This document shows positions 15,959 to 63,698 of a stretch of 64,000 nt of DNA, in pieces. The stretch covers positions 6,024 to 70,023 of the forward strand of contig CAZFKS010000005.1 of the NCBI GenBank assembly GCA_964519725.1, written 5' to 3'. The notes beneath the pieces were generated by a model. The model was not told where the DNA came from. It did not search any database and saw only the letters and a program-made list of their open reading frames with translations. Within the stretch, counting starts at the first letter, position 1; every line of letters starts with the position of its first letter. Made by a program: the position numbers and the translations under genes. Source of the DNA: an uncultured Gammaproteobacteria bacterium (GTDB lineage: Bacteria; Patescibacteriota; Patescibacteriia; Magasanikbacterales; UBA922).

Positions 15959-17581
15959 TTGACAAGGCAAGACAGTCTTGATACACTGTTTACACGTATG
16001 AATTCTGTTGAACCTGACAGTGCTTTGGCCAAATCGGCCGCAACCCTTGAAAATGTCACCCGCCTCCGCGAGGCTAACTTGTCTAAAAGACCAGTTTTGC
16101 AAGATATCTTAAAAAAACACGGCACCCGCTCCGTGTTTCGTTTTATTAAAGAATACACCACTAAACCTTTGCCCGCTCCAGACACAGCGCGGCAAGAAGA
16201 ATTTTTAGCGGCTTTTCACGCCGAAGTTGAACCACGGTTAGGCAAAGCCAGTGCTGACCGCGGTGTGCGTCAGTTGCGCAAATATTATTATGTTTCAACC
16301 ACTGACCACTTTGGCCCAATGTATCACCCTTGGGTATTTAACTTTAATTTACTCGCTGCTGCGGCCTGTCGCGATACTGAAGATGATGATTTAAGTGCGG
16401 TAATTACTTTGGCCTGTTCTAATGTTTCACTAAATAATTTTTCTTTCCCCCGCGGGCTCATGTTTACTACGGCTGGTGAAGATGGCAAAGCCAAGCACAA
16501 TCGTTTGGCCTTTTTGCCAAGTAATGCGCATTCCTATCCGGTTTACAATTTCCGCCCCTATGTTCAGGCTGATATTGATAAAATTAAAAAATTAGTGCCT
16601 GATCAATTGAAAAATGTTTTGCACGCCGCCGAGTTAAAAGAAAAATTGTTTGATATTTTAGATAGTATTTACGCAGCTCCAGACGTACTAGCGGCCAAAA
16701 ATTACGCTGACCAAGTGTCGATTACTAACCAACGTTTGTGGCGTGAACTGCAGTGTGATTGTACTGATCATAAACAAATTGATTTTATCTACATTGAACA
16801 AGAACGGGTCGTGGCTCGATTACTTACTGAACACCATTTAACTCCAGACAGTCCGATTGGGGCGCGGTTATTTGATAAAGCTGCGGCCGAACGCTTACTC
16901 AAAGCTTTTGACCGTGTTCCAGAAGGATTTAATGCTGAAGCTGAAACTGGAACTTATTTGTTTTGGTACTTACCCCCACAAGATAAACACCGGGTGCGGT
17001 TAGTTTTTGCTGGGGACTCACTAAAATCAGCTGACGGCACAGTTTCAATTCCACTTACCAAAGAAGCAATTATTAGTGGCCTAGAAAAAGGTGAGTTGAT
17101 TCCAAGTGTACTGCTCACTTTCCTCATGATGTACTGCTACTATGGTGTAACTTGTCTTGGTGGTATGGGTCAAACTGGATATTTGCCGCAAATTCAAGCG
17201 GCTTGGTGTAAACTCATGACCGAAGAAAACCGAATAAATGAACTGAAAGTTTGTGAAAAATTGTATGGTAGCTATTTAGGTGGTGAAGTGACCGTAGCCT
17301 ACATTGATAGTTTGAACGGGGTATTTGCCCCGGCCACGTCACTTGATTTAATTCTATATGGTGATGACGACGCGCGCGCTTGTATTACTGGCCAGGCCAA
17401 GAGTATCACCTTAAATGAAGCCATGGACCCACTCTGGCCAGATGATTATCCAATGCACTTTAAATCTTGGGAACAAGACCCAGCTTTGGCCGCAATCACT
17501 AGTGAGGATATTGCAAAATTAACTGGTTTATCCGACCGAATTTCACCGTGCTTACACTTAGACTGTAAAATTTACCACTAA
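15959..17581 (+). CDS. hypothetical protein (540 aa; alternative start at 15998)
   Basis: Long ORF with host-like codon usage inside the envelope-glycan cluster. No domain recognised. Confidence 0.6.
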   Translation: MTRQDSLDTLFTRMNSVEPDSALAKSAATLENVTRLREANLSKRPVLQDILKKHGTRSVFRFIKEYTTKPLPAPDTARQEEFLAAFHAEVEPRLGKASADRGVRQLRKYYYVSTTDHFGPMYHPWVFNFNLLAAAACRDTEDDDLSAVITLACSNVSLNNFSFPRGLMFTTAGEDGKAKHNRLAFLPSNAHSYPVYNFRPYVQADIDKIKKLVPDQLKNVLHAAELKEKLFDILDSIYAAPDVLAAKNYADQVSITNQRLWRELQCDCTDHKQIDFIYIEQERVVARLLTEHHLTPDSPIGARLFDKAAAERLLKAFDRVPEGFNAEAETGTYLFWYLPPQDKHRVRLVFAGDSLKSADGTVSIPLTKEAIISGLEKGELIPSVLLTFLMMYCYYGVTCLGGMGQTGYLPQIQAAWCKLMTEENRINELKVCEKLYGSYLGGEVTVAYIDSLNGVFAPATSLDLILYGDDDARACITGQAKSITLNEAMDPLWPDDYPMHFKSWEQDPALAAITSEDIAKLTGLSDRISPCLHLDCKIYH

Positions 17582-17584
17582 AGT

Positions 17585-18250
17585 ATGTCTTATCGCGACA
17601 CTTTACTTGACCTCTGGGCCAAGCCGCACGATTATTTTGCCCAATCACACGCGGAAATGGTGCCGTTTGTGCCAGCCACTGCCAAAAAAATAATTGATAT
17701 TGGTTGTGGCAAAGGTGAATTAGGTGAACAAGTTAAAGTTGCGCGCCAGGCTGAAGTGTGGGGTTTAGAGATTGATACGTCTGCGGCTAGAGTTGCTGAA
17801 GGTAGACTCGATAAAGTTTTAACTGGCGACATTGTGGCGCTTTTGCCAGAACTGCCAGACAATTATTTTGATGCCATTATTTTCTGCGATATTTTAGAAC
17901 ACATTGTTGACCCGTTTTCACTACTCATAGCGATCAAGAAAAAACTTGCGCCTGGCGGGGTAGTAGTTTGTTCCATTCCCAATGTCCGGTATTTATTAAC
18001 TCTCAAAACTTTGTTCATTGATAAAGATTGGCATTACACGCACGAGGGCGTGCTCGACAAAACTCACCTGCGTTTTTTCACAGCCAAAAGTATTCGCGAC
18101 ATGCTTGAGGCGTTAGATTTTGAAGTTAAAACTTTGCAAGGCATTAACCCAATTGTGTCCTACAAATTTAGTATTTTAAATGTTCTCTCCCTTGGCTATT
18201 TATCTGATACGCGGTATATTCAGTTTGCTTGCGTGGCTAAACCTAATTAA
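17585..18250 (+). CDS. class I SAM-dependent methyltransferase
   Basis: Motif I IIDIGCGKGELGE, then VWGLEIDTSAA and FDAIIFCDILEHIVDP (Methyltransf_11/23-like). Confidence 0.85.
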   Translation: MSYRDTLLDLWAKPHDYFAQSHAEMVPFVPATAKKIIDIGCGKGELGEQVKVARQAEVWGLEIDTSAARVAEGRLDKVLTGDIVALLPELPDNYFDAIIFCDILEHIVDPFSLLIAIKKKLAPGGVVVCSIPNVRYLLTLKTLFIDKDWHYTHEGVLDKTHLRFFTAKSIRDMLEALDFEVKTLQGINPIVSYKFSILNVLSLGYLSDTRYIQFACVAKPN

Positions 18251-19843: not shown

Positions 19844-19933
<90 letters not shown>

Positions 19934-19975
19934 GATTGGCAACTTTGAACTTTTTAAAGCCAGTCATATAGCCAT

Positions 19976-20299
19976 ATGAAAGCAGCTATTAAGTGGATCT
20001 TAGGAGTAGTGCTCATAGTTTGGGTGCTTTCTGCTGCGCCGGGGCTCTTGGCGGGTATTTTTTGGGCAGATAGCAATGCTCCGTGGGAGAAAGTTGATGC
20101 CTTTTATTATCCTGATGCCAACAACCTTACAGAATGGGAAAACCAAATGGATGTGGGTTCAGTTCAGGCTTGTCGTGATTGGGTAGAAGATTCAGCAGCA
20201 GCAAAAGGCGATCCTAGTTTAGAGCGTGGTGACTACGAGTGTGGAGTTGGATGTAAAAGTAAGGATGGATTCAATGTCTGCCGCTTAACGGTTGATTAA
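19976..20299 (+). CDS. small secreted/anchored Cys-containing protein (107 aa) on the tRNA-Ser islet
   Basis: N-terminal hydrophobic signal/anchor with four Cys in the mature part. Codon usage (ata, aag, agg) differs from native genes. Confidence 0.5.
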   Translation: MKAAIKWILGVVLIVWVLSAAPGLLAGIFWADSNAPWEKVDAFYYPDANNLTEWENQMDVGSVQACRDWVEDSAAAKGDPSLERGDYECGVGCKSKDGFNVCRLTVD

Positions 20300-20302
20300 T
20301 TT

Positions 20303-21724
20303 ATGAAAACCAGAGTTTTACTCATAAATTTTACTCAGGCAGAAGCCGACAAAATAAAAGTTCCGCCTAGTGTTGATATTCATAGGGGCTATTTGAGCGA
20401 CCTTTTGCCTTACGAAAAGATCTATAACGAGGAGTTCAATAAAACCTTAGGGAAGATGTGTCAAGCCTATTTTCCATTGGCGATACACGAATACAAAGTC
20501 ATATTCGTAAAACTTCATACAGTTCCAGGTTTGGAGGAAGAGTTCGAAGATAAGCTTGAGTCTTATCACGAAAAAATCGTGAACGATCTAATCAATTACA
20601 TCCTTCAAGGAAGTGGCTACTTAGTGGTAATGCTTGGAAATTATCAATCTGCAAAGATGTTCCATCTTGGAATACAAGACATCACTTTGCATAAAACTAT
20701 TGGTAGGGATAGCACCATCAATACAGTAAACACCGAGTTCAACAAGGTCTTTGAAAGGCTTGAAAGTGAGGTCATTATGCCGACTGAGAGCTATATCACC
20801 GTAGATGATAAAGAGGATGATTTTTACAAGAAGTTCTCATCGAGTTTTACAATTAAAAATATCTACAAAAATCAGGCAGGAAATGTTCTTGGTTGCTATC
20901 ACAATAACAGCAGGTATTATGGCGACTGCAGCCCAGGCTTCTTTCTGTTGCCCCTTTTCCGTAATAGCAATGTTGCTGTAGCGGAATTGCTAAAGGAGTT
21001 TTCACGTCATACGCAAAAGTTTTTGCCAGAGTTTTACCAATCCGATTGGCAAGACTCGGATGATTATCTTCCTGTCCAAGTACAGGAGTATCAAGACAAA
21101 ATTAGCAAGATTATTCAAAAAGCAGAGAGCCTTATTCAAGAGCAGAAAACCAAGAGAGATAACGCTAGAGCAAAATATCACTACTTGGTTGAACTCCTCT
21201 CTCAGAAACACGATGTGCTCAAGACCGCGGTAATAACTACTCTTCAGGAAGTCTTCAAATTGCCTGTAGATGACTCAGATGCAATAAAGAAAACCACGTT
21301 AGACCACGAAGATATTGTGGTTCAGGTGGGTAGTGAGCAAATCTTAGTTGAAATCAAAGGCGATAATGCTTCCTATCCTGGTACGGGACATATAGCTCAA
21401 CTATGGAAGCATTTGAAGAATAAGAAAGAGATTGAGCGTGGAGCACTTATTCTAAATTATGATGTGAGTACAGAACCAGAGAAAAGAAAGCTTGCCTACA
21501 CAGGTGAGGAGAAACACCAAATAGCTGACATCATCTATATTGATACGAGAGCATTACACGATTTGGCTATAGCAATCATTGATTACGGAATGAAACCTGA
21601 AGATGCTACAAAAATCCTTTTCCAAAATGGAAGAGTCACGTTCAACTTGGATAAACACACAGAGGAGTTTCAAAGTAAAAATGTCGCCGATAAATCGGTG
21701 TCTCTCGCAAACAAGTCAAACTAG
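20303..21724 (+). CDS. 473-aa protein with a coiled-coil segment and a C-terminal PD-(D/E)xK nuclease-like motif
   Basis: Near the C-terminus, LDHEDIVVQVGSEQILVEIKGD fits D-x13-E-x-K of the restriction-endonuclease fold. A coiled-coil (QEYQDKISKIIQKAESLIQEQKTKRDNARAKYHYLVELLS) precedes it. Codon bias (AAG/AGA/ATA-rich) is unlike its neighbours. Confidence 0.65.
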   Translation: MKTRVLLINFTQAEADKIKVPPSVDIHRGYLSDLLPYEKIYNEEFNKTLGKMCQAYFPLAIHEYKVIFVKLHTVPGLEEEFEDKLESYHEKIVNDLINYILQGSGYLVVMLGNYQSAKMFHLGIQDITLHKTIGRDSTINTVNTEFNKVFERLESEVIMPTESYITVDDKEDDFYKKFSSSFTIKNIYKNQAGNVLGCYHNNSRYYGDCSPGFFLLPLFRNSNVAVAELLKEFSRHTQKFLPEFYQSDWQDSDDYLPVQVQEYQDKISKIIQKAESLIQEQKTKRDNARAKYHYLVELLSQKHDVLKTAVITTLQEVFKLPVDDSDAIKKTTLDHEDIVVQVGSEQILVEIKGDNASYPGTGHIAQLWKHLKNKKEIERGALILNYDVSTEPEKRKLAYTGEEKHQIADIIYIDTRALHDLAIAIIDYGMKPEDATKILFQNGRVTFNLDKHTEEFQSKNVADKSVSLANKSN

Positions 21725-22043
21725 TAAACAGAAAATTTAAGGGGAATAACGCTAACCTATTACTGAGTATTCCACAACACTTCTTTCTTTGAGAGGATTT
21801 GAGTTTTGGTATCTCAAACCACTCTGGGTGCTCTTTGTGCATAGCGCGCAATTTCGGTATGATTTTATCGAGATAGCTGAACGTTAGGCCGCGTTTCGGT
21901 TCAAAGTTCCGCCAATCATCACTGCCTTTGTCACGACGTAACTTTATCGAAGTTGGATTATATTTATTACCGTCATGACTATGGCATAACATAGTCACAT
22001 TGTTCAGAATTAAACCAAAAGAATATGTCGACTTCGCAATCAA
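21642..22043 (-). CDS. hypothetical 133-aa protein (possible HNH-like C...H..H..N motif; C-terminal 28 codons overlap the 473-aa gene)
   Basis: The N-terminal two-thirds look protein-like (LCHSHDGNKYNPTS...HKEHPEWFE). The C-terminal tail reads antisense to the convergent gene, so the true end or the gene's reality is uncertain. Confidence 0.35.
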   Translation of the reverse strand: MIAKSTYSFGLILNNVTMLCHSHDGNKYNPTSIKLRRDKGSDDWRNFEPKRGLTFSYLDKIIPKLRAMHKEHPEWFEIPKLKSSQRKKCCGILSNRLALFPLNFLFTSLTCLRETPIYRRHFYFETPLCVYPS

Positions 22044-22351
22044 CGGCTGATTTTATTCTGGATCAAATTAATTTACCAAGCACAGCCGTGCGCAAAATGT
22101 TTGGTGAGTATGCCCTGTATTATCAAGGAAAAGTAGTGGCCTTGATTTGCGACAACACCCTGTTTGTAAAAATCACACCACCAGGCGCAGAGTTTGCGCA
22201 TGATTATTACGAGGAAGGCTTTCCTTACCCAGGCGCCAAACCGGCGTTAAAAATTAGTCCAGAACAAGTTGAAGATTCTGAATGGCTCACCGAACTAATT
22301 GAAATTACGGCGCAGAATTTGCCGACTCCCAAGCCCAAGAAAAAAGCCTAG
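22025..22351 (+). CDS. TfoX N-terminal domain protein
   Basis: RKMFGEYALYYQGKVVALICDNTLFVKITP matches the TfoX_N (Sxy N-terminal) fold. Codon usage is host-like. Confidence 0.65.
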   Translation: MSTSQSTADFILDQINLPSTAVRKMFGEYALYYQGKVVALICDNTLFVKITPPGAEFAHDYYEEGFPYPGAKPALKISPEQVEDSEWLTELIEITAQNLPTPKPKKKA

Positions 22352-23460: not shown

Positions 23461-24216
23461 TTACTTACCTTCGTTTTGATCACAGTAATAATCAATAGCT
23501 TTATGCACAAAAGCAGCTAATCCTGGTCTGAATTTTTCGTAATATTCAGTGTACCGCGGATCATCTTCGTACATTTTTCCTAAATTACGGAACATTTCGT
23601 ACGAACAGTCATAGAAAAAATTCACGCCATCATGACTTTTTTTAATCAGTGCCTGAACGGTTTCACTTTCAATTGGCAAATCCATGGCCGCAGCCAGCGC
23701 CTCCATGTGCTTTTTGCCATCGTCTTTTAATTTCTGCATGTCAGCTTTGGTCATTTTACTAACCTTGGCCTGTGATTGTTTGTACGCATCAGTATTCCCC
23801 CATTTTTCCTTGGCTTCCTGGGCATACTCTTTCATGTCTTCGTCGGCAAAAGCATCGTAAAGTTCTTCGTCCTTCATATTAGTTTCGTGGTTAATTTTTT
23901 TAATTGTGCTATCAATGGTATGAATTAATTTGCTCAGCCGCTTTTTCTTAAGTTCAATCAATTTGCGATGATCTTGTAAAGCCGTAGCTAAGTCAAAATA
24001 CGGCGAGTTTAAAATTCGCTTAATATCACTGAGGGCAAAATCCAATTCTCGAAAAAAGAGGATTTGTTGTAGTTTGAGCAGCTCAGCCTCTTCATAAACC
24101 CGATACCCATTTGACTGGACGCGACTAGGACTAAGTAACCCAATCTCATCATAATAATGCAGTGTGCGCACACTGGTTCCAGCTAGTTTGGCTAGGGTCT
24201 GAACAGTATAATTCAT
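23461..24216 (-). CDS. MerR-family regulator with a TipAS-like C-terminal effector domain
   Basis: N-terminal MerR HTH (YTVQTLAKLAGTSVRTLHYYDEIGLL) and a C-terminal TipAS/Mta-like region. Confidence 0.85.
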   Translation of the reverse strand: MNYTVQTLAKLAGTSVRTLHYYDEIGLLSPSRVQSNGYRVYEEAELLKLQQILFFRELDFALSDIKRILNSPYFDLATALQDHRKLIELKKKRLSKLIHTIDSTIKKINHETNMKDEELYDAFADEDMKEYAQEAKEKWGNTDAYKQSQAKVSKMTKADMQKLKDDGKKHMEALAAAMDLPIESETVQALIKKSHDGVNFFYDCSYEMFRNLGKMYEDDPRYTEYYEKFRPGLAAFVHKAIDYYCDQNEGK

Positions 24217-24329: not shown

Positions 24330-24659
24330 ATGGGAATTATTATTCATTGGCTCGTGGTTACTCTCGCAATTATGGTTAGTGCTTATCTTTTGCCTGGGGT
24401 AAAAGTGGCTGGTTTTATTCCAGCACTCGCGGCCGCAGTCGTTCTAGGCTTACTCAATTTAATTGTTAAACCAATTCTGATTTTCCTGACCCTACCAATT
24501 AATATTTTGACCTTAGGTTTATTTACCTTGGTGATCAACGCGGCCATTATTATACTCGCTACCAAAATTGTGCCTGGTTTTACGGTGGCCAGTTGGGGTT
24601 GGGCAATTTTGTTTGGCATTGTGCTTGGTATTGTGAATGCCTTATTTGGCAGTCGTTAA
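24330..24659 (+). CDS. DUF360 / phage-holin-4-like four-TM membrane protein
   Basis: 109 aa with four TM helices and a YvlD-like LPGVKVAGF...LINAAIIILATKIVPGF pattern. Divergent from the MerR gene. Confidence 0.75.
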   Translation: MGIIIHWLVVTLAIMVSAYLLPGVKVAGFIPALAAAVVLGLLNLIVKPILIFLTLPINILTLGLFTLVINAAIIILATKIVPGFTVASWGWAILFGIVLGIVNALFGSR

Positions 24660-27807: not shown

Positions 27808-29574
27808 ATGAAAAAATATCTACCCTACTTTAAACTTAGTATTGCCCTGTCGATCGCACTTACTGTCAATCATTTTGCCCCAGAAATTTTGCATCTCCTG
27901 AACCACGGCTCAGAAGGGGCACTGCTTTTGGCTTTCTTTGGCTTTGCGGCGCTAGCTGTCCTTAGTTTTACAGTTTTTCACCTATCACAAAATACGGTTT
28001 TACCACCTTTTGTAGTGGCAATCTTTTTTGGCCTTGCGGCCCAAGACTTATTGGCACCAATTATTGGAAATACAGTGGTCTTAGGTGATATTGTTGCTTT
28101 TGGTGCGACTTTAATTCTTTTTAGTGGCGGATTAGAAACCCCATTCACCAACTTTAAAAAATTATTCTGGAAAATCGCGTCTTTATCTTTCCCTGGTCTT
28201 ATTTTAACTGCCTTTTTATTTGCCTGGACAATTTTATTACTAAACAACTGGTTATCACTGTCAGTTAGTTTACCAGTAGCTGTCCTACTAGGTGCGGTAC
28301 TTGCCTCAACCGATCCGGCCGCCATTATCCCAATTTTAAAAGGTCTTCGGTTTAAAAATCGAGACACCAAGGACATAATCATTTCTGAAAGTGCGCTCAC
28401 TGATGTAACTGGCACTCTACTTACAGTCGCATTTTTAGGCCTCATTACGACGGGCAAAACTTTTAGCACTATTGGAGACTGGTATGGTGCTTTGGCAACG
28501 AGTGGTAGTCTTATTATTCTTGCCAAGCAAATTTTGTTTGGCGTTTTAATGGGTTTAATTGGCTTTGGGCTTTTATATGGACTTTCCAAACTTAAAGAAA
28601 AACACCAGGCTGAATACGAGGCAGACGCTGCTTTCTTTTTGTTCGTACCAATTGTCATTTTTACTTTTGCAGTGCCCTTTGGTGGCAGCGGTTATTTAGC
28701 CGCTTTCGTAGCCGGACTTTTATATGTACTCACTAAACATTTACATGAGACTGAACGTTTTTTCAACCATACCATTGAAGGCTTTTTGAAGCCTACCATT
28801 TTCTTGCTTTTAGGCGCTTTGGTCAACTTAGAAAGTCTGTTTGCCTACGCTTTAATTGGAGTACTTGCGGCCACAGTGTTTATGTTTGTCATTCGTCCGC
28901 TGTCAGTATTTATCAGTTTGACAGGTTTTCGATTCGCAAAAACTGACAGATTAACGATCCGCGAATTACTGTTCATATCATTTGTACGTGAAACAGGTGC
29001 GATCCCGGCAGTACTTTTGGTAACGATTGTTAGTCTTGGTCTGCCCGGTACAGAACCCTTAGTACCAATTGGTATGTGGGTTATCCTTCTTACTTTAATC
29101 ATTGAGCCCCCACTAACTCCTTGGCTGGCAAAAAAATTAGCAGTTGCCTCTCCAATGATGGACACTAGTGACCTCGATTTAGACAATGGCACTGTTCCAT
29201 TTGTAGTTCTAGGCTCTCGCGGTAATTCATATATTGAACGTTTACCCAAAGTTGTTGATTGGGCCGATAATCACCGAATTAATAGAATCGTGCTCCTGCA
29301 TTGTCCAGAAGACAAATATACGACTGAACTAGCCGAAAAGATTAGAGTGGAAGCAAACACAGAGTTTAATAAAATTAATCAATTCAGAAGCCAGAGCGGT
29401 AGATCCGAAATTACTTTTGATTATGTTAGTCGCACTGGTTTCCTACAGACTAATATTGATGAGCTTGCCAGAGAACACCGTGGAGTGACAGCGATTTTTG
29501 TTGGACGCAAAGTGCTTGACTATCGCTTGGAAGAAATTAAGAACCTAGAAGTACCACTTTTCTTCATTGATTAA
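27808..29574 (+). CDS. cation:proton antiporter (Na+/H+ exchanger family) with a C-terminal soluble domain
   Basis: Polytopic N-terminal domain with DPAAIIPILKGL and ISESALTDVTGTLL (PF00999), then a C-terminal cytoplasmic extension of about 180 aa. Confidence 0.8.
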   Translation: MKKYLPYFKLSIALSIALTVNHFAPEILHLLNHGSEGALLLAFFGFAALAVLSFTVFHLSQNTVLPPFVVAIFFGLAAQDLLAPIIGNTVVLGDIVAFGATLILFSGGLETPFTNFKKLFWKIASLSFPGLILTAFLFAWTILLLNNWLSLSVSLPVAVLLGAVLASTDPAAIIPILKGLRFKNRDTKDIIISESALTDVTGTLLTVAFLGLITTGKTFSTIGDWYGALATSGSLIILAKQILFGVLMGLIGFGLLYGLSKLKEKHQAEYEADAAFFLFVPIVIFTFAVPFGGSGYLAAFVAGLLYVLTKHLHETERFFNHTIEGFLKPTIFLLLGALVNLESLFAYALIGVLAATVFMFVIRPLSVFISLTGFRFAKTDRLTIRELLFISFVRETGAIPAVLLVTIVSLGLPGTEPLVPIGMWVILLTLIIEPPLTPWLAKKLAVASPMMDTSDLDLDNGTVPFVVLGSRGNSYIERLPKVVDWADNHRINRIVLLHCPEDKYTTELAEKIRVEANTEFNKINQFRSQSGRSEITFDYVSRTGFLQTNIDELAREHRGVTAIFVGRKVLDYRLEEIKNLEVPLFFID

Positions 29575-45539: not shown

Positions 45540-46244
45540 ATGGACCTAAAAGGACAAGTACGGAAAATAGGGCGGCCAATTTGGCGACATGCGGCTTTGC
45601 ACCGGATTTCTCAGGGGGAATTTACCCCTGACGAGATGCGGCGCTTTGTCCTGCAGCGCCATGCTTTAGCCACAGGTTTTGTCGGACTCCTCAAGAGCAT
45701 CATCCGGAATACGGACGACGAGGCTCTCAGAGAGTGTGTCTGGCAAAACCTGGCGGACGAGACCGGTCACGGCGTAGAGCGTGATTCGCATGCCACCTGG
45801 CGTGCGGATTATCTGCGCGGACTTGGGCTTGACCCGCCCTACACAGCACCGCTCTGGAGCGGCACCAGGCACTACAATGAGGTTTTGCGCGAGCTCAGCT
45901 CCGCCAATCCTCTCGTCAGTGCTGGTGCACTTTGGCTCCTGGAGCGGAGCCTTCCACCTGAATTTGCGCGAATCCGGCGCGGACTCGAGCGGGTGTTCCC
46001 AAACACCTTTGTGCTCAGTCTGGCTGATACAGCCGAAGTGCGTGCTCGCAAAGAGCGCACCCGGTTGTATCTCGTGGATCACGAACGGCACGATGCCGCG
46101 TACCACGAGCCTGACTTGCGACGTGTGCTTACCCGTCCCGACTGGGACGGACGTGCGTGCGCGTCAATTCTCTTAGGCGCTGAGCTCGTCGCCGCTGCCA
46201 AAGTGAAGTTCTACGACTCGGTCGCAGACTCGCTTGGCAAGTAA
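45540..46244 (+). CDS. hypothetical high-GC protein (234 aa), possibly heme-oxygenase-like/PqqC-TenA-like helical fold
   Basis: Strong SD (GGGAGGGGagaATG). GC3-rich codons and an all-helical, Arg-rich composition. The NLADETGHG segment is weakly reminiscent of iron-containing redox/PqqC-like proteins. Followed by the GC hairpin at 46251-46270. Confidence 0.55.
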   Translation: MDLKGQVRKIGRPIWRHAALHRISQGEFTPDEMRRFVLQRHALATGFVGLLKSIIRNTDDEALRECVWQNLADETGHGVERDSHATWRADYLRGLGLDPPYTAPLWSGTRHYNEVLRELSSANPLVSAGALWLLERSLPPEFARIRRGLERVFPNTFVLSLADTAEVRARKERTRLYLVDHERHDAAYHEPDLRRVLTRPDWDGRACASILLGAELVAAAKVKFYDSVADSLGK

Positions 46245-46294
46245 ACGCTCCCCCGGTCGCAAGGCCGGGGTCAACTCTTTGCAAAGTGAGAAAT

Positions 46295-46321
46295 AAAAAA
46301 TCCCCGCCAGGGGATTTTTTA
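46295..46321. terminator. bidirectional intrinsic terminator between the convergent high-GC genes
   Basis: aaaaaatcccc-gcca-ggggatttttt. An upstream GC hairpin ccccggtcgcaaggccgggg and the palindrome ctttgcaaag also lie here. Confidence 0.55.
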
Positions 46322-46418
46322 TTTTAAACCAACTTAATATTCATTTAAAAAAAATAAATACTCAGTTAGGTTGCGCGGCCGATCCTTTTCGGACCAGTCA
46401 CCGCGCTTCCCTCCTGCG

Positions 46419-46994
46419 CTAGTCTTTGGTGATGGGGTCTGGGTCCCCTTCAGCCATTCCGTAGCGCTTTTGACCGCGATCAGTCTTGTGGTCGATGGTG
46501 CCATGTGACACTTCAACCACTGTGGCGCTGCAGAGCGGTCGCAGAACCAGCTGAACCGGTGAGCGATCGGGCCCAAACGTCTGGGGAACCTCCCCAACGT
46601 TCAGAACCGAGAGCACTGCGCCTTTCCAGTCGGCTGGGTCCGGGCGGTAGTTCTGGTCGAACACCACACCGGCCGGAATCACGAGCCGTTTTTTGGCCGG
46701 ACCAGTCTTGGCCACGACCTCGGCGAACCACCCTGGCGGTGGAACAAAGGTGAGTCCGGTGGCGAACTCGGCCGCTTGTCCGGGAAGGACTGTGAACTCC
46801 TCCACAGGAAACACGTCCCAGCCCGAGTCTGAGGCATGGGATTTGGTGGGAATTCTTCCCCCCATTTCCCGAGCCCTCGGGTGAAGGCTGAATTTGAAGA
46901 CCGCAGGGCCCTTTTCCTCGAGCCGAGAAATTCTCCAGTTGATCCAGCCGAATCCAAACACCACGACCGCTGTAACGACACTTTCAAAGACCAT
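46419..46994 (-). CDS. hypothetical high-GC protein (191 aa) with dUTPase/dCTP-deaminase-like beta-barrel motifs and an N-terminal TM segment
   Basis: SD cGGAGGGAGaaaagccATG at MVFESVV. Segments SDSGWDV, VAKTGPAKK, GVVFDQNYRPD and RSPVQLVL align with dUTPase motifs I, III, IV and V in order. GC3-rich. Confidence 0.5.
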   Translation of the reverse strand: MVFESVVTAVVVFGFGWINWRISRLEEKGPAVFKFSLHPRAREMGGRIPTKSHASDSGWDVFPVEEFTVLPGQAAEFATGLTFVPPPGWFAEVVAKTGPAKKRLVIPAGVVFDQNYRPDPADWKGAVLSVLNVGEVPQTFGPDRSPVQLVLRPLCSATVVEVSHGTIDHKTDRGQKRYGMAEGDPDPITKD

Positions 46995-47085
46995 GGCTTT
47001 TCTCCCTCCGTTTTTGGAGTCCAATTTTACCATAAGGTTATATTTTTTCAATATTACTTAATGTCTCAAAATAAATATTTAAAAA

Positions 47086-60971: not shown

Positions 60972-63623
60972 TTACGGCAGCTTACTTATAGCATTTATGG
61001 TAGCTGCCCCAAAAGTTCCAGTTCCCTTTTTAAGCCCAATTGGTTTTAAAATTTTGTCTGCATTTGCTTCTTGGAATTTTACCAAGGCCTTAGCTGTAGC
61101 TGGACCAAAAATTATCGTCTCATTACCTGGCGAACCTGGACCATTTTTGGAAACAACAAACCCTTGTGCATTTAAAAATTGTTGTAGTGCTTTTACATCA
61201 TCACCTTTACTACCCAGCTGCAACGTACGTTTAAAAGTTGAGACTGTTGGCGTAGCTGGTGTTGCCGGACCAGTACTATTTGAACCAGAACTACTATTTC
61301 CCCCGGCCCCGTAAGAAACTGTTTGCGTAAATACTTCTGATGCCTGACCCGTTGGTGAATAGTATTTTAAATAAATCGTGTATATGCCAGTTTTGTTAGG
61401 CAAAATAAAATTTGTATCAGTATTCGGGTTAACTGGGATAATGATTGCATTTTTAAATGATGCGTCGAGTGAAGCCGAATACCCACGCACAGCGCCTGGA
61501 TTAGCATTTAGATTTAATTTGATATTAGGCGTAGTAACTTTAACTGTACTTGCACCAGAAGTGGGCTTATTGTTTACATTAAAGCTGAACAGCGGTGCAC
61601 TAAAAAATGCACTCGGCGCAGCTGCTGCTGGGCTACCGCTATCACCTGAAACGACATAAACAGTGGCTACAGCTGTGGCCACATTCGAATAATTACTAAA
61701 ATCATCCCCAGCAAAAATACTATAATAATAAGTACCATTAGCCAAAGAAGTGTCTGAATAGCTTGTACTTACCGTACTGGTTACGGCGGTGCCGTCAGTA
61801 ACCGAAGTTGGGTAACCCGTCGTACTACGGCGAATAGTTGAAGATGAAAAGTCAGAGACTGGATTGGTCCAGCTTAATATAATTGTATCCCCACTAGCCG
61901 TTGCCCTAAAGCCACTCGGTGCAACTGGGGCAGTCGTATCAATAGTTACGCTTGAAGTCCCAGCATTAGAATAATTTTCATAATCATCACTGGCAAAAAT
62001 ACTGTAATAGTGAATTCCATCATCTAAACTCGTTTGTGTTAGACTTGTGAGACTAGTCGAGGTAACCGATACGCCCTCATAAATCGAGCTTGGGAAACTT
62101 TCAGTGCCGCGTTGCAATCTATACAAAACAGCAGTTGCTGGAGCGGTCCAAGAAAGATAGACCGTTGACCCACTAGCCACGGCGGTAAGGGTTGGGGCTG
62201 ATGGTGGAGTGACATCAACCGTCACGCTAGCCCTACCTGCACTAGAATAATTCCCTTCAGCGTCACGAGCAAAAATACTGTAATAGTAGGTCGCATCACT
62301 CATTTCATTTTGAGTAAGAGTATTAAAAATGGTAGAAGTAACAGTTGTGCCTTCGGTAATTGAGCCAGGATACCCTGTAGTACTACGTTGTAGTAAGTAT
62401 GAAACTGCGTCTGCAGGAGCACTCCAATGCAAACTGATCGTAGACCCACTTTTCGATGCTTCAAGGATGGGTGCCTCTGGCGGTACAGCCACAGTAACTG
62501 TTGTGGTCACACCGGCACTGAAATATCCATCCATCGTTTCATTAAACAGTGTGTAATAATAGACACCGTCAGACAAATTAGAATCAACAAATGAGGTGTC
62601 CATAGTGACCGTAGAAGTGACAGCAGTGCCCTCAGTAGCCGTGGCCGGGTAGGTAGTCGTACTGCGACGAATAGTTACTCCCCGATAGTCTGAGTCAGAC
62701 ACACCGGTTGTCCAACCCAGTGTCACATCATCGCTATCAACACTGGCGGACAGACCAGACACAGCATTAATTGGGGAATAGGTCTGTACTACACCACTAG
62801 TATCAATAGTAGTAATTCTTCCAGAACTCGTACTAAAATCAAAACCTGCCAAATTTGAAAAGCTTTTCGACCATAAAAGTGTACCATCTGATACTGCCCG
62901 TTTAGCTAAACTACTAGCACTTGCATAATAAATAGCCGCACCATTGTTTGAAACCGCAAAACCTTTGGCACTACCAGCACTTGGCCCACCAGTAGCAATG
63001 GTTGTATCATAAGTCGTTAAATTTGTGCGGGCAAATCGACCAGAGATAGCCAGATAAAAAAGTTGGCTTCCGCCGTAGGCCATTTTCGCAATTGTTGATG
63101 ACGCCGTCGCAGTGGTAGCACCACCTAAAGCAGTGTTGAACATAGAGACCGTTACTGATTTTCCAGTATAGACTGTCCCATCACTCCCTAAAGTTATACT
63201 TGGCGATCCGGTAGAAAGCGTACTACTAGCAAAAAATGTAGCCACACTTCCATCTATATCATATCTATACACCGAATTTGGCGTCCCTTGTCCTGCAATA
63301 TAAATTTTACCACCAGAAACAGCTAGATCAGAGGCAGCAAAGTTTGGTAAGGATACGTTATAAGTAATCGCAGAAAAAGAACTGCCATCTGCTGAAAAGA
63401 CACCTAAGGTGGTCACACTGCTGCCGAGCACATATGCTTTACCGTCAACCGGGTCTACCCGTATCTGTCTAATTGTGCCAACGACACCAGTTGAGGCACT
63501 AGCAGAAAAACTCTGATATAACGGAGCCACAGCTTTGACTGTTTTTGCGATTATAAAAAAAGCGCTTACTCCTAAAATAGCAGCCATTGTGAGCCAAGTT
63601 TTTTTCTTCCAGAACACATTCAT
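60972..63623 (-). CDS. secreted cell-surface protein: beta-propeller-like region, four Fn3-like repeats, C-terminal peptidoglycan-binding (PG_binding_1) domain
   Basis: Signal/anchor MNVFWKKKTWLTMAAILGVSAFFIIA. Four repeats of about 90 aa, each with ...LxWTxxxxxxxYRLQRGTxxYPxSIxEGTxVTST... The C-terminus (GSKGDDVKALQQFLNAQGFVVSKNGPGSPGNETIIFGPATAKALVKFQ) is a PG-binding repeat. Confidence 0.8.
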   Translation of the reverse strand: MNVFWKKKTWLTMAAILGVSAFFIIAKTVKAVAPLYQSFSASASTGVVGTIRQIRVDPVDGKAYVLGSSVTTLGVFSADGSSFSAITYNVSLPNFAASDLAVSGGKIYIAGQGTPNSVYRYDIDGSVATFFASSTLSTGSPSITLGSDGTVYTGKSVTVSMFNTALGGATTATASSTIAKMAYGGSQLFYLAISGRFARTNLTTYDTTIATGGPSAGSAKGFAVSNNGAAIYYASASSLAKRAVSDGTLLWSKSFSNLAGFDFSTSSGRITTIDTSGVVQTYSPINAVSGLSASVDSDDVTLGWTTGVSDSDYRGVTIRRSTTTYPATATEGTAVTSTVTMDTSFVDSNLSDGVYYYTLFNETMDGYFSAGVTTTVTVAVPPEAPILEASKSGSTISLHWSAPADAVSYLLQRSTTGYPGSITEGTTVTSTIFNTLTQNEMSDATYYYSIFARDAEGNYSSAGRASVTVDVTPPSAPTLTAVASGSTVYLSWTAPATAVLYRLQRGTESFPSSIYEGVSVTSTSLTSLTQTSLDDGIHYYSIFASDDYENYSNAGTSSVTIDTTAPVAPSGFRATASGDTIILSWTNPVSDFSSSTIRRSTTGYPTSVTDGTAVTSTVSTSYSDTSLANGTYYYSIFAGDDFSNYSNVATAVATVYVVSGDSGSPAAAAPSAFFSAPLFSFNVNNKPTSGASTVKVTTPNIKLNLNANPGAVRGYSASLDASFKNAIIIPVNPNTDTNFILPNKTGIYTIYLKYYSPTGQASEVFTQTVSYGAGGNSSSGSNSTGPATPATPTVSTFKRTLQLGSKGDDVKALQQFLNAQGFVVSKNGPGSPGNETIIFGPATAKALVKFQEANADKILKPIGLKKGTGTFGAATINAISKLP

Positions 63624-63629
63624 ATTTAA

Positions 63630-63638
63630 ATTATACCA
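63630..63638 (-). promoter_or_regulatory. extended -10 element (TGgTATAAT) about 6 nt upstream of the surface-protein ATG, possibly a leaderless transcript
   Basis: Minus strand reads ttgTGgTATAATttaaatATG. No SD is present. Confidence 0.3.
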
Positions 63639-63663
63639 CAATTTTTCTTTTTTTAGGTAAATA

Positions 63664-63689
63664 AAAAAGAAGCTTTTACGCTTCTTTTT
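63664..63689. terminator. intrinsic terminator after the DEAD-box helicase gene
   Basis: aaaaagaagc-ttttac-gcttcttttt. Confidence 0.55.
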
Positions 63690-63698
63690 CATATTTTT

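What the first reader, a model, noticed from the sequence alone, without database searches (positions are those of the whole stretch)
19934..22043. Compositionally distinct islet inserted 3' of tRNA-Ser encoding a coiled-coil PD-(D/E)xK nuclease-like protein: candidate novel defence module
Directly downstream of tRNA-Ser(CGA), a classic integration hotspot, about 2 kb shows codon usage unlike the surrounding genes (AAG/AGA/AGG/ATA frequent where neighbours use AAA/ATT). It encodes (i) a 107-aa signal-anchored four-Cys protein, (ii) a 473-aa protein whose C-terminus carries LDHEDIVVQVGSEQILVEIKGD, fitting the D-x(13)-E-x-K catalytic strands of restriction-endonuclease-fold nucleases, preceded by a coiled-coil and a roughly 300-aa unassigned N-terminal region, and (iii) a convergent 133-aa ORF with a possible HNH-like C..H.H...N signature whose 3' end overlaps the 473-aa gene by 83 nt. 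Host-like codon usage resumes at the TfoX-N gene (22025). A large unassigned sensor-like region joined to a coiled-coil and a nuclease recalls single-gene anti-phage effectors such as Shedu-like proteins, but I cannot assign it to a named family. It may be a previously undescribed defence or abortive-infection element.
Basis: partly seen in the sequence, partly recalled or inferred. Interest (0 to 1): 0.75.

Follow-up and report, generated by a model that had tools for sequence, protein, structure and literature searches.

The report
Solitary foreign nuclease beside tRNA-Ser
A horizontally acquired gene next to a serine tRNA encodes a member of a large, unnamed family of DNA-cutting enzymes whose relatives sit in mobile elements and beside restriction systems, so it is a credible but untested candidate for a new anti-virus defence gene.

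The parts
19844..19933 (+). tRNA-Ser(cga). Synteny with a related genome ends exactly at its 3' end.
   Evidence: ARAGORN and Rfam RF00005 at 51.6 bits. L023 keeps DedA, EamA and tRNA-Ser(cga) and then continues with RuvA, PepA and IleRS.
19925..19950 (+). Conserved junction, attL-like: the last 9 nt of the tRNA plus the 17-nt trailer GATTGGCAACTTTGAAC.
   Evidence: Identical in the window, L027 and L032/L033, although the three tRNA-Ser bodies differ (cga and two distinct gct genes) and synonymous sites of the cargo genes are saturated. L023 has an unrelated trailer. No second copy exists in the window.
19976..20299 (+). 107-aa small exported or membrane-anchored four-Cys protein. It is a resident of this tRNA-Ser-proximal block, not part of the foreign cargo.
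   Evidence: 104 homologues. Host-like codons. Present in L032 without the 473-aa gene and absent from L027, which has it. No Pfam, PADLOC, NCBIfam or PHROGs hit.
20303..21724 (+). 473-aa gene: a horizontally acquired solitary nuclease of an unnamed superfamily.
   Evidence: 42 close homologues. 999 representatives at E<=1e-3. dN/dS 0.05. Atypical codons. AF2 mean pLDDT 88.3.
20303..21010 (+). N-terminal domain (aa 1-236): class-I glutamine-amidotransferase-like fold without the catalytic triad.
21011..21253 (+). Linker carrying invariant W249, plus long helices (aa 258-291, 293-300, 303-317): a putative coiled-coil dimerisation element.
   Evidence: AF2 secondary structure. W249 is kept in 96 of 97 and 52 of 54 representatives.
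21254..21637 (+). PD-(D/E)xK restriction-endonuclease-fold domain (aa 318-445). The catalytic motif E336-D337...E350-x-K352 is encoded at 21308-21358.
21753..22043 (-). Frameshifted remnant of a small conserved ORF. The listed 133-aa ORF runs on to 21642 only because of a 1-nt indel at about 21791.
   Evidence: Alignment with 4 homologues and the L027 fragment. 1-nt indel against L027. Nucleotide homology with L027 continues to 21845. Intermediate composition.
22025..22351 (+). TfoX_N gene: the first clearly host-like gene to the right, marking the compositional right boundary.
   Evidence: Pfam TfoX_N at 2.7e-11. Arg 1 CGN and 0 AGR.

Best explanation
The 473-aa gene (20303-21724) is a horizontally acquired, self-contained DNA nuclease that most likely serves as a single-gene immunity protein, either restriction-like or abortive-infection. 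It occupies a swappable cargo slot in a plastic region downstream of tRNA-Ser genes.

Proposed mechanism. The long helices (aa 258-317) pair two chains, so that two FokI-like PD-(D/E)xK domains can cut both DNA strands. Catalysis would use Mg2+ held by E336, D337 and E350, with K352 as the catalytic lysine. The catalytically dead GATase1-like N-domain, which is conserved across the whole superfamily, keeps the nuclease off until it meets its cue. Because no cognate DNA methyltransferase is nearby, self-DNA must be spared in one of two ways: recognition of a foreign feature such as modified phage DNA (Type IV-like), or activation only during infection.

Shown: the folds, the invariant catalytic residues, purifying selection, foreign composition, variable and mobile contexts, and adjacency of homologues to R-M and AriA-like genes. 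Inferred: the defence role, dimerisation, gating by the N-domain, and the nature of the trigger.

For: Catalytic residues. They are invariant in 35 sequences and kept in about 150 representatives and in the 565-620-aa branch.

Selection. dN/dS is 0.05-0.07.

Foreignness. AGR accounts for 10 of 13 Arg codons against a window mean fraction of 0.08. Homologue GC is below flank GC in 13 of 14 loci, for example 0.37 vs 0.54 and 0.32 vs 0.47. The distribution across phyla is patchy.

Context of homologues.
- L001-3: serine recombinase, HTH_17, EcoRI-type methylase, REase_II (5e-135), then the homologue.
- L004: HTH_17, AriA-like ATPase (3e-23), a 108-aa gene, then the homologue.
- L011: HsdM, the homologue, a 226-aa gene, then HsdS.
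- L008: tRNA-Glu, resolvase, HTH_17, then the homologue.
- L015: serine recombinase nearby.
- L010: an S24 repressor and PDDEXK_1 upstream, and a terminase-like gene downstream.

Slot swap. L032 has tRNA-Ser, the 107-aa gene, His_Phos_1 and then an unrelated 232-aa gene. L027 has the same His_Phos_1 (92% identical) followed by the 475-aa homologue.

Synteny with L023 breaks at the tRNA 3' end.
Against: No experiment exists, and defence is inferred from fold and neighbourhood only. PADLOC, PHROGs, Pfam and NCBIfam give no hit, so there is no link to any validated defence family. Only 3 of about 15 independent contexts have a recognised defence gene directly adjacent. Five (L006, L007, L016, L017, L018) are flanked by housekeeping genes. 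I made no statistical enrichment test over the roughly 1000 clusters. In the window there is no integrase, no attR and no methyltransferase. The AF2 pTM is only 0.56, so the interdomain geometry, and with it the gating idea, is unsupported structurally. The coiled-coil dimer was not modelled. The L011 contig is a 3.7-kb binned MAG fragment.
Confidence: 0.55

Rival explanations
1. Selfish or element-maintenance nuclease. The gene is cargo that benefits the mobile element rather than the host, for example a free-standing homing-type endonuclease that promotes its own spread, or an addiction or exclusion nuclease of integrative elements.
For: It is a solo gene with foreign composition in nearly every host. 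Close homologues (78-84% identical) lie in unrelated loci. Insertions fit tightly, with start codons overlapping the upstream gene (L027 and L011). It recurs next to serine recombinase and HTH_17 genes.
Against: No conserved target sequence or flanking repeat accompanies the gene, and nucleotide homology among close homologues stops at the gene ends except in L027. It is large and three-domained, unlike known homing endonucleases. It is absent from IMG/VR, from plasmids and nearly absent from phage records. It is embedded in R-M loci. Strong purifying selection at dS above 1 suggests long-term retention.
Confidence: 0.15
2. Recombination accessory factor: a XisH-like endonuclease-fold protein that controls excision or integration by the neighbouring serine recombinase.
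Against: Most contexts, including the window, have no recombinase. The better structural matches are restriction enzymes. A full catalytic motif is conserved. XisH is a single domain of about 130 aa. The gene is separated from the recombinase by R-M genes in L001-3.
Confidence: 0.07
3. Housekeeping DNA repair or recombination nuclease (NucS-, Hjc-, RecB- or Bax1-like) of streamlined uncultured bacteria.
For: Weak fold matches to Hjc, Bax1 and NucS. Several homologues are flanked by housekeeping genes. DNA-repair genes (DNA_alkylation, HhH-GPD) lie about 5 kb away in the window.
Against: The distribution is patchy across phyla. The gene is absent from the syntenic loci of relatives L023 and L032. 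Its GC and codon usage are foreign in 13 of 14 loci. There is no conserved neighbourhood. Restriction enzymes are the better fold matches.
Confidence: 0.05
4. The N-domain is itself an enzyme or small-molecule binder using N/D9, E63, D136 and N190, so the protein is a ligand-activated nuclease like Can2, Card1 or Cap4, responding to a nucleotide or metabolite signal made elsewhere.
Against: No cyclase or other signal-generating gene is a conserved neighbour. The N-domain is not a CARF or SAVED fold. The pocket was not examined in 3D. This is a variant of the main explanation rather than a full alternative.
Confidence: 0.1

Closest known systems
FokI and other Type IIS cleavage domains (FokI, R.BspD6I small subunit, N.BspD6I)
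   Different: No sequence-level match to any Pfam nuclease family. The N-terminal region is a GATase1-like fold rather than winged-helix recognition domains. A long coiled coil is inserted. There is no adjacent methyltransferase in the window.
Shedu (SduA, DUF4263)
   Same: A single-protein defence nuclease of the PD-(D/E)xK superfamily with a regulatory N-terminal region. It is horizontally mobile and found in islands.
   Different: No DUF4263 or PADLOC Shedu hit. Shedu N-termini are highly variable, whereas here the N-domain is conserved across the superfamily. Shedu did not appear among the top fold matches.
Mrr-like and Type IV or Type ISP restriction nuclease domains (AF1548, LlaBIII nuclease domain, AspBHI, EcoT38I)
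   Different: No Mrr_cat hit. No known modified-base reader domain such as SRA, wH or DUF262. Modification dependence is untested.
Can2, Card1 and Cap4 ligand-activated nucleases
   Different: The sensor is not CARF or SAVED. There is no linked cyclase or CRISPR locus. A coiled-coil linker is present.
Non-catalytic class-I glutamine-amidotransferase-like domains (ThuA-like, the IFT52/GIFT N-domain, the GH42 beta-galactosidase trimerisation domain, STM3548)
   Different: The literature searches made here found no report of this fold fused to a nuclease or placed in a defence context. Its own set of conserved residues is N/D9, E63, D136 and N190.

Membership tests
Shedu (SduA) | DUF4263 (PF14082) nuclease domain, or a PADLOC Shedu model hit | tested here: not met
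   Pfam at E<=0.1 and PADLOC at E<=1 gave no hit for the 473-aa protein. PADLOC gave only weak matches (PDC-S26 0.0052; LmuB down to 2.7e-5) in 3 of 10 distant relatives.
Type IIS restriction enzyme (FokI-like) | Sequence membership in the FokI cleavage-domain family | tested here: not met
Type IIS restriction enzyme (FokI-like) | Cognate DNA methyltransferase encoded alongside | tested here: not met
   No DNA MTase lies within about 10 kb in the window. The only MTase (17585-18250) is a generic Methyltransf_23/11 small-molecule type. Most homologue contexts also lack one.
Type IV (modification-dependent) restriction enzyme | Cleavage only of modified DNA, and a recognisable modified-base reader domain | not testable with these tools
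   No known reader domain was detected. Modification dependence needs an assay, for example T4 with glc-hmC against T4 with unmodified C.
PD-(D/E)xK nuclease superfamily (fold level) | An alpha-beta-beta-beta-alpha-beta core with an acidic residue in strand 2 and (D/E)xK in strand 3 | tested here: met
Class I glutamine amidotransferase (catalytic) | Conserved Cys-His-Glu triad | tested here: not met
   No invariant or near-invariant Cys or His occurs in aa 1-240 of 35 sequences. Reading the model and alignment by eye, with no structural superposition made, the expected nucleophile-elbow position is G-D/N-Y or E-R/D-N. Only the fold is shared.
NucS / EndoMS | NucS N-terminal DNA-binding domain plus a NucS-type C-domain (Pfam NucS) | tested here: not met
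Lamassu LmuA effector | Partner SMC-like LmuB (and LmuC) in the operon, and a PADLOC LmuA hit | tested here: not met
   No LmuA hit. No SMC-like neighbour in any context. The Foldseek match to LmuA is not significant (E 0.1).
tRNA-targeting integrative island | An integrase or recombinase within the island | tested here: not met
   None in the window between 13 and 31 kb. Recombinases are present in the homologue islands L001-3, L008 and L015.
tRNA-targeting integrative island | A direct repeat of the tRNA 3' end (attR) bounding the island | tested here: not met
   No copy at >=17 of 20 matches for the 62-nt tRNA-end plus trailer, and none of an 18-mer with up to 3 mismatches.
tRNA-targeting integrative island | The same junction sequence at non-orthologous tRNA genes, and a synteny break at the tRNA 3' end | tested here: met
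   The 26-nt junction is identical at three different tRNA-Ser genes. L023 synteny ends at the tRNA 3' end.
HNH endonuclease (claimed for the 133-aa ORF) | An HNH or HNH-like Pfam domain with conserved His/Asn/His and Cys pairs | tested here: not met
   No Pfam, NCBIfam, PADLOC or PHROGs hit. The motif lies in an N-terminal stretch absent from all homologues.

The most novel reading that the evidence does not exclude
The gene is a member of a previously unrecognised, widespread superfamily (about 1000 clusters at 50% identity) of single-protein immune nucleases, found so far mainly in MAGs of uncultured lineages (Patescibacteria/CPR lineages, Peregrinibacteria, Omnitrophota). In it, a catalytically dead glutamine-amidotransferase-like domain acts as the sensor or gate for a coiled-coil-paired, FokI-like cleavage domain. 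This sensor-effector combination matched no defence model or paper searched here.
Probability: 0.35. Interest if true: 0.75.

Novelty: new variant of a known kind. Interest (0 to 1): 0.6.

Why it matters
According to a 2025 metagenomic-selection paper read here (PMC12366544), very few defence systems have been identified in Patescibacteria genomes and only one Patescibacteria phage had been described. A compact, one-gene nuclease family that spreads among these lineages and nests in R-M loci would add a new entry to the immune repertoire of these organisms. It would also give the non-catalytic GATase1-like fold a first role in nucleic-acid conflict. A coiled-coil-paired, FokI-like cleavage module under control of a separate domain could be of interest as an engineering scaffold. 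The shared tRNA-Ser junction with interchangeable downstream cargo also marks a natural hot spot where further unknown cargo genes can be looked for, such as the 232-aa gene of L032.

Tried and rejected
- Foldseek against AFDB50 was unavailable.
- Exact-protein look-ups of the flanking TfoX_N and EamA proteins found only the same strain or nothing.
- attR searches found nothing.
- The 108-aa gene upstream of the L004 homologue is unrelated to the window's 107-aa ORF.
- The 427-aa gene next to the small-ORF homologue in L031 is unrelated to the family (hhalign probability 0.1%).
- There are no homologues in PLSDB plasmids, one weak hit in phage records, and none in IMG/VR.
- Literature searches for a GATase-like domain joined to a nuclease in defence, and for peptide motifs of the family, found nothing.
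- The Patescibacteria defence genes LdgA and DdgA (PMC12366544) could not be compared because no sequences are held. [quoted passage not shown]
- I first read the profile search as showing swapped N-terminal domains. The profile-profile alignment refuted this for the 565-620-aa branch. The 405-511-aa proteins that matched only the C-terminal half were not resolved.
- The RuvA, PepA and IleRS genes that follow tRNA-Ser(cga) in L023 are not in the window. A simple insertion therefore cannot be distinguished from a rearrangement through paralogous tRNA-Ser genes.
Full report
OBSERVATION. The tRNA-Ser(cga) at 19844-19933 (+) is confirmed by ARAGORN and Rfam. The three ORFs are at the stated coordinates. 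GC differs only slightly from the neighbourhood, but codon choice in the 473-aa gene is clearly atypical. AGR accounts for 10 of 13 Arg codons, against a mean fraction of 0.08 (sd 0.14) over 45 window ORFs. ATA accounts for 10 of 37 Ile codons and AAG for 18 of 45 Lys codons. The flanking EamA, DedA, TfoX_N, 371-aa and MerR genes use 0-1 AGR. The 107-aa ORF does not share the foreign signature (GC 0.46, 3 CGN and 0 AGR). The stretch 21753-22043 is intermediate.

THE SUPERFAMILY. An exhaustive profile search returned 999 cluster representatives at E<=1e-3, 532 at <=1e-10 and 85 at <=1e-30. The catalytic residues and W249 are retained across about 150 of them. I first took the many 565-620-aa proteins that matched only from profile position about 190 onward as evidence of swapped N-termini. 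A profile-profile comparison showed otherwise: it aligns 438 columns, including the N-domain (E 2e-41). So that branch carries a divergent copy of the same N-domain plus a C-terminal extension of about 100 aa. The three-part architecture is therefore the conserved unit. Positions equivalent to N/D9, E63, N190, P217 and W249 are conserved superfamily-wide. None of the relatives tested has a Pfam or NCBIfam hit, a significant PADLOC hit or a PDB sequence hit. The gene is functional, with dN/dS of 0.05-0.07 against homologues whose synonymous sites are saturated.

MOBILITY AND CONTEXT. In 13 of 14 loci the homologue has lower GC than its flanks, sometimes by 13-17 points. The taxa named in genome records span Peregrinibacteria, Omnitrophota, Patescibacteria, Pacebacteria, Woesebacteria, a Gammaproteobacteria MAG and a Methanosarcinales MAG.

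The contexts differ even among close homologues:
- L001-3 (80% identical): serine recombinase, HTH_17, EcoRI-type methylase, a GmrSD_N-HNH protein scored as REase_II (5e-135), then the homologue.
- L004: primase-like Zn-ribbon gene, DUF5659, HTH_17, AriA/AbiLi-like ATPase (3e-23), a 108-aa gene, then the homologue.
- L008: tRNA-Glu, resolvase, HTH_17, then the homologue.
- L011: HsdM, the homologue (start overlapping the HsdM end), a 226-aa gene, then HsdS.
- L010: an S24 repressor and PDDEXK_1 upstream, and a terminase-like gene downstream.
- L015: serine recombinase and tRNAs nearby.
- L018-20 (78% identical): tRNA-Glu 330 nt upstream, among housekeeping genes.
- L006 and L007: solo among housekeeping genes.

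The family is absent from PLSDB and IMG/VR and nearly absent from phage records.

THE LOCUS ITSELF. A related genome (L023, flanking proteins 65-69% identical) keeps the order Wzy-like, DedA, EamA, tRNA-Ser(cga). It then continues with RuvA, PepA and IleRS, and none of the window's genes to the right of the tRNA is present there.

Two closer relatives show the slot structure:
- L027 has tRNA-Ser(gct), tRNA_bind, His_Phos_1, the 475-aa homologue (84% aa) and the small minus-strand ORF.
- L032/L033 have tRNA-Ser(gct), the 107-aa homologue (86% aa), His_Phos_1 (92% identical to L027's), then an unrelated 232-aa gene.

So the nuclease gene is present or absent independently of its neighbours. The three tRNA-Ser bodies differ, yet all end in TCTCCGCCA followed by the identical trailer GATTGGCAACTTTGAAC. 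After it the window and L032 continue together, and L027 diverges. That is the signature of a recombination joint at the tRNA 3' end. However, the window has no attR, no integrase and no DNA methyltransferase within about 10 kb. Either only the left junction of an old island survives, or paralogous tRNA-Ser genes mediated a rearrangement.

THE OTHER TWO ORFS. The 107-aa ORF belongs to a separate family of 104 small proteins that is far wider than the nuclease family. It is host-like in composition. The 133-aa ORF is annotated in NCBI as 116 aa. Only a C-terminal segment of about 55 aa is shared with four homologues, which all end ...KSDKGxNAVDYS. The window copy departs from this at residue 84 because of a 1-nt indel relative to L027, and it reads on into the 473-aa gene. 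The supposed HNH signature lies in the non-conserved N-terminus, and no HNH model matches. In L031 a homologue of this segment sits next to two type II methyltransferases and an unrelated 427-aa protein.

INTERPRETATION. The evidence best fits a solitary, horizontally mobile DNA nuclease used in genetic conflict, most likely host or island defence against phage. Two nuclease domains would be paired by the helical segment, and activity would be controlled by the conserved pseudo-amidotransferase domain. The folds, residues, selection, mobility and neighbourhoods are shown. The defence role, dimerisation, gating and trigger are inferred. With no methylase partner, self-protection must come from modification dependence or from infection-dependent activation, and I cannot distinguish these. 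Alternatives remain possible but fit fewer observations: a selfish or element-maintenance nuclease, a XisH-like recombination accessory, or a housekeeping repair enzyme.

NOVELTY. The individual folds and the general logic (a regulatory domain joined to a PD-(D/E)xK effector, carried in islands) are well known. The family itself, and the use of a GATase1-like domain in this role, matched none of the libraries or papers searched here. I rate it a new variant of a known kind, of moderate to good interest, and untested.

Noticed in passing
window 45540-47033: Two ORFs with GC 0.58-0.59 against a window mean of 0.43. One is a 234-aa Haem_oxygenas_2-like protein on the + strand. The other is a 204-aa protein on the - strand with no Pfam hit. 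This is a second, much stronger compositional islet.
   Followed up: partly
window 15959-18250: A 540-aa protein with no family and a 221-aa Methyltransf_23/11 methyltransferase lie between the Wzy-like gene and DedA. The related genome L023 has Wzy directly next to DedA, so this pair is an indel.
   Followed up: partly
L032 814-4173 (also L033): A diversity-generating-retroelement pair (bAvd and an RVT_1 reverse transcriptase) sits immediately upstream of two divergent tRNA-Ser genes. The cargo slot after His_Phos_1 holds a 232-aa protein with no family, which by eye has PIN-like D-T-N motifs.
   Followed up: partly
L031 5001-8910: The small-ORF homologue is convergent with an unannotated 427-aa gene. 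Next to them are a LexA/S24-N6_N4 methyltransferase fusion and a Dam-like methyltransferase. This may be an R-M locus with an unrecognised endonuclease.
   Followed up: partly
L011 135-3250: A type I R-M operon fragment has two genes inserted between HsdM and HsdS: the 475-aa family member and a 226-aa protein with no Pfam, PADLOC or PHROGs hit.
   Followed up: partly
L004 3723-7914: An AriA/AbiLi-like ATPase (599 aa) is followed by a 108-aa gene, the family member and a 152-aa gene with a weak PHROG hit. Whether these form one system was not examined.
   Followed up: no
window 27808-29574 and 60972-63692: A Na/H exchanger gene and a 906-aa PG_binding_1 protein also show raised AGR use (about 0.3) and low codon-usage likelihood, though less extreme than the 473-aa gene.
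   Followed up: no
window 23461-24216 and L017 4479-5225: A MerR-TipAS regulator with a very similar N-terminus (MNYTV..LAK.AG.SVRT.HYYDEIGL) lies about 1.5-2 kb from the family member in both the window and L017. L017 also has a protein upstream that looks His_Phos-like by eye. Possibly coincidence.
   Followed up: no
proteins P0128-P0186 (alignment A6), C-terminal ~100 aa: The 565-620-aa branch of the superfamily carries an extra C-terminal extension. It gives weak, non-significant sequence matches to domain II of translation factors (eIF5B, EF-1alpha).
   Followed up: no
window 24330-24659: A 109-aa Phage_holin_4_2 family membrane protein (5.7e-32) has a 3' end that overlaps the start of the GSDH-type dehydrogenase gene.
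   Followed up: no
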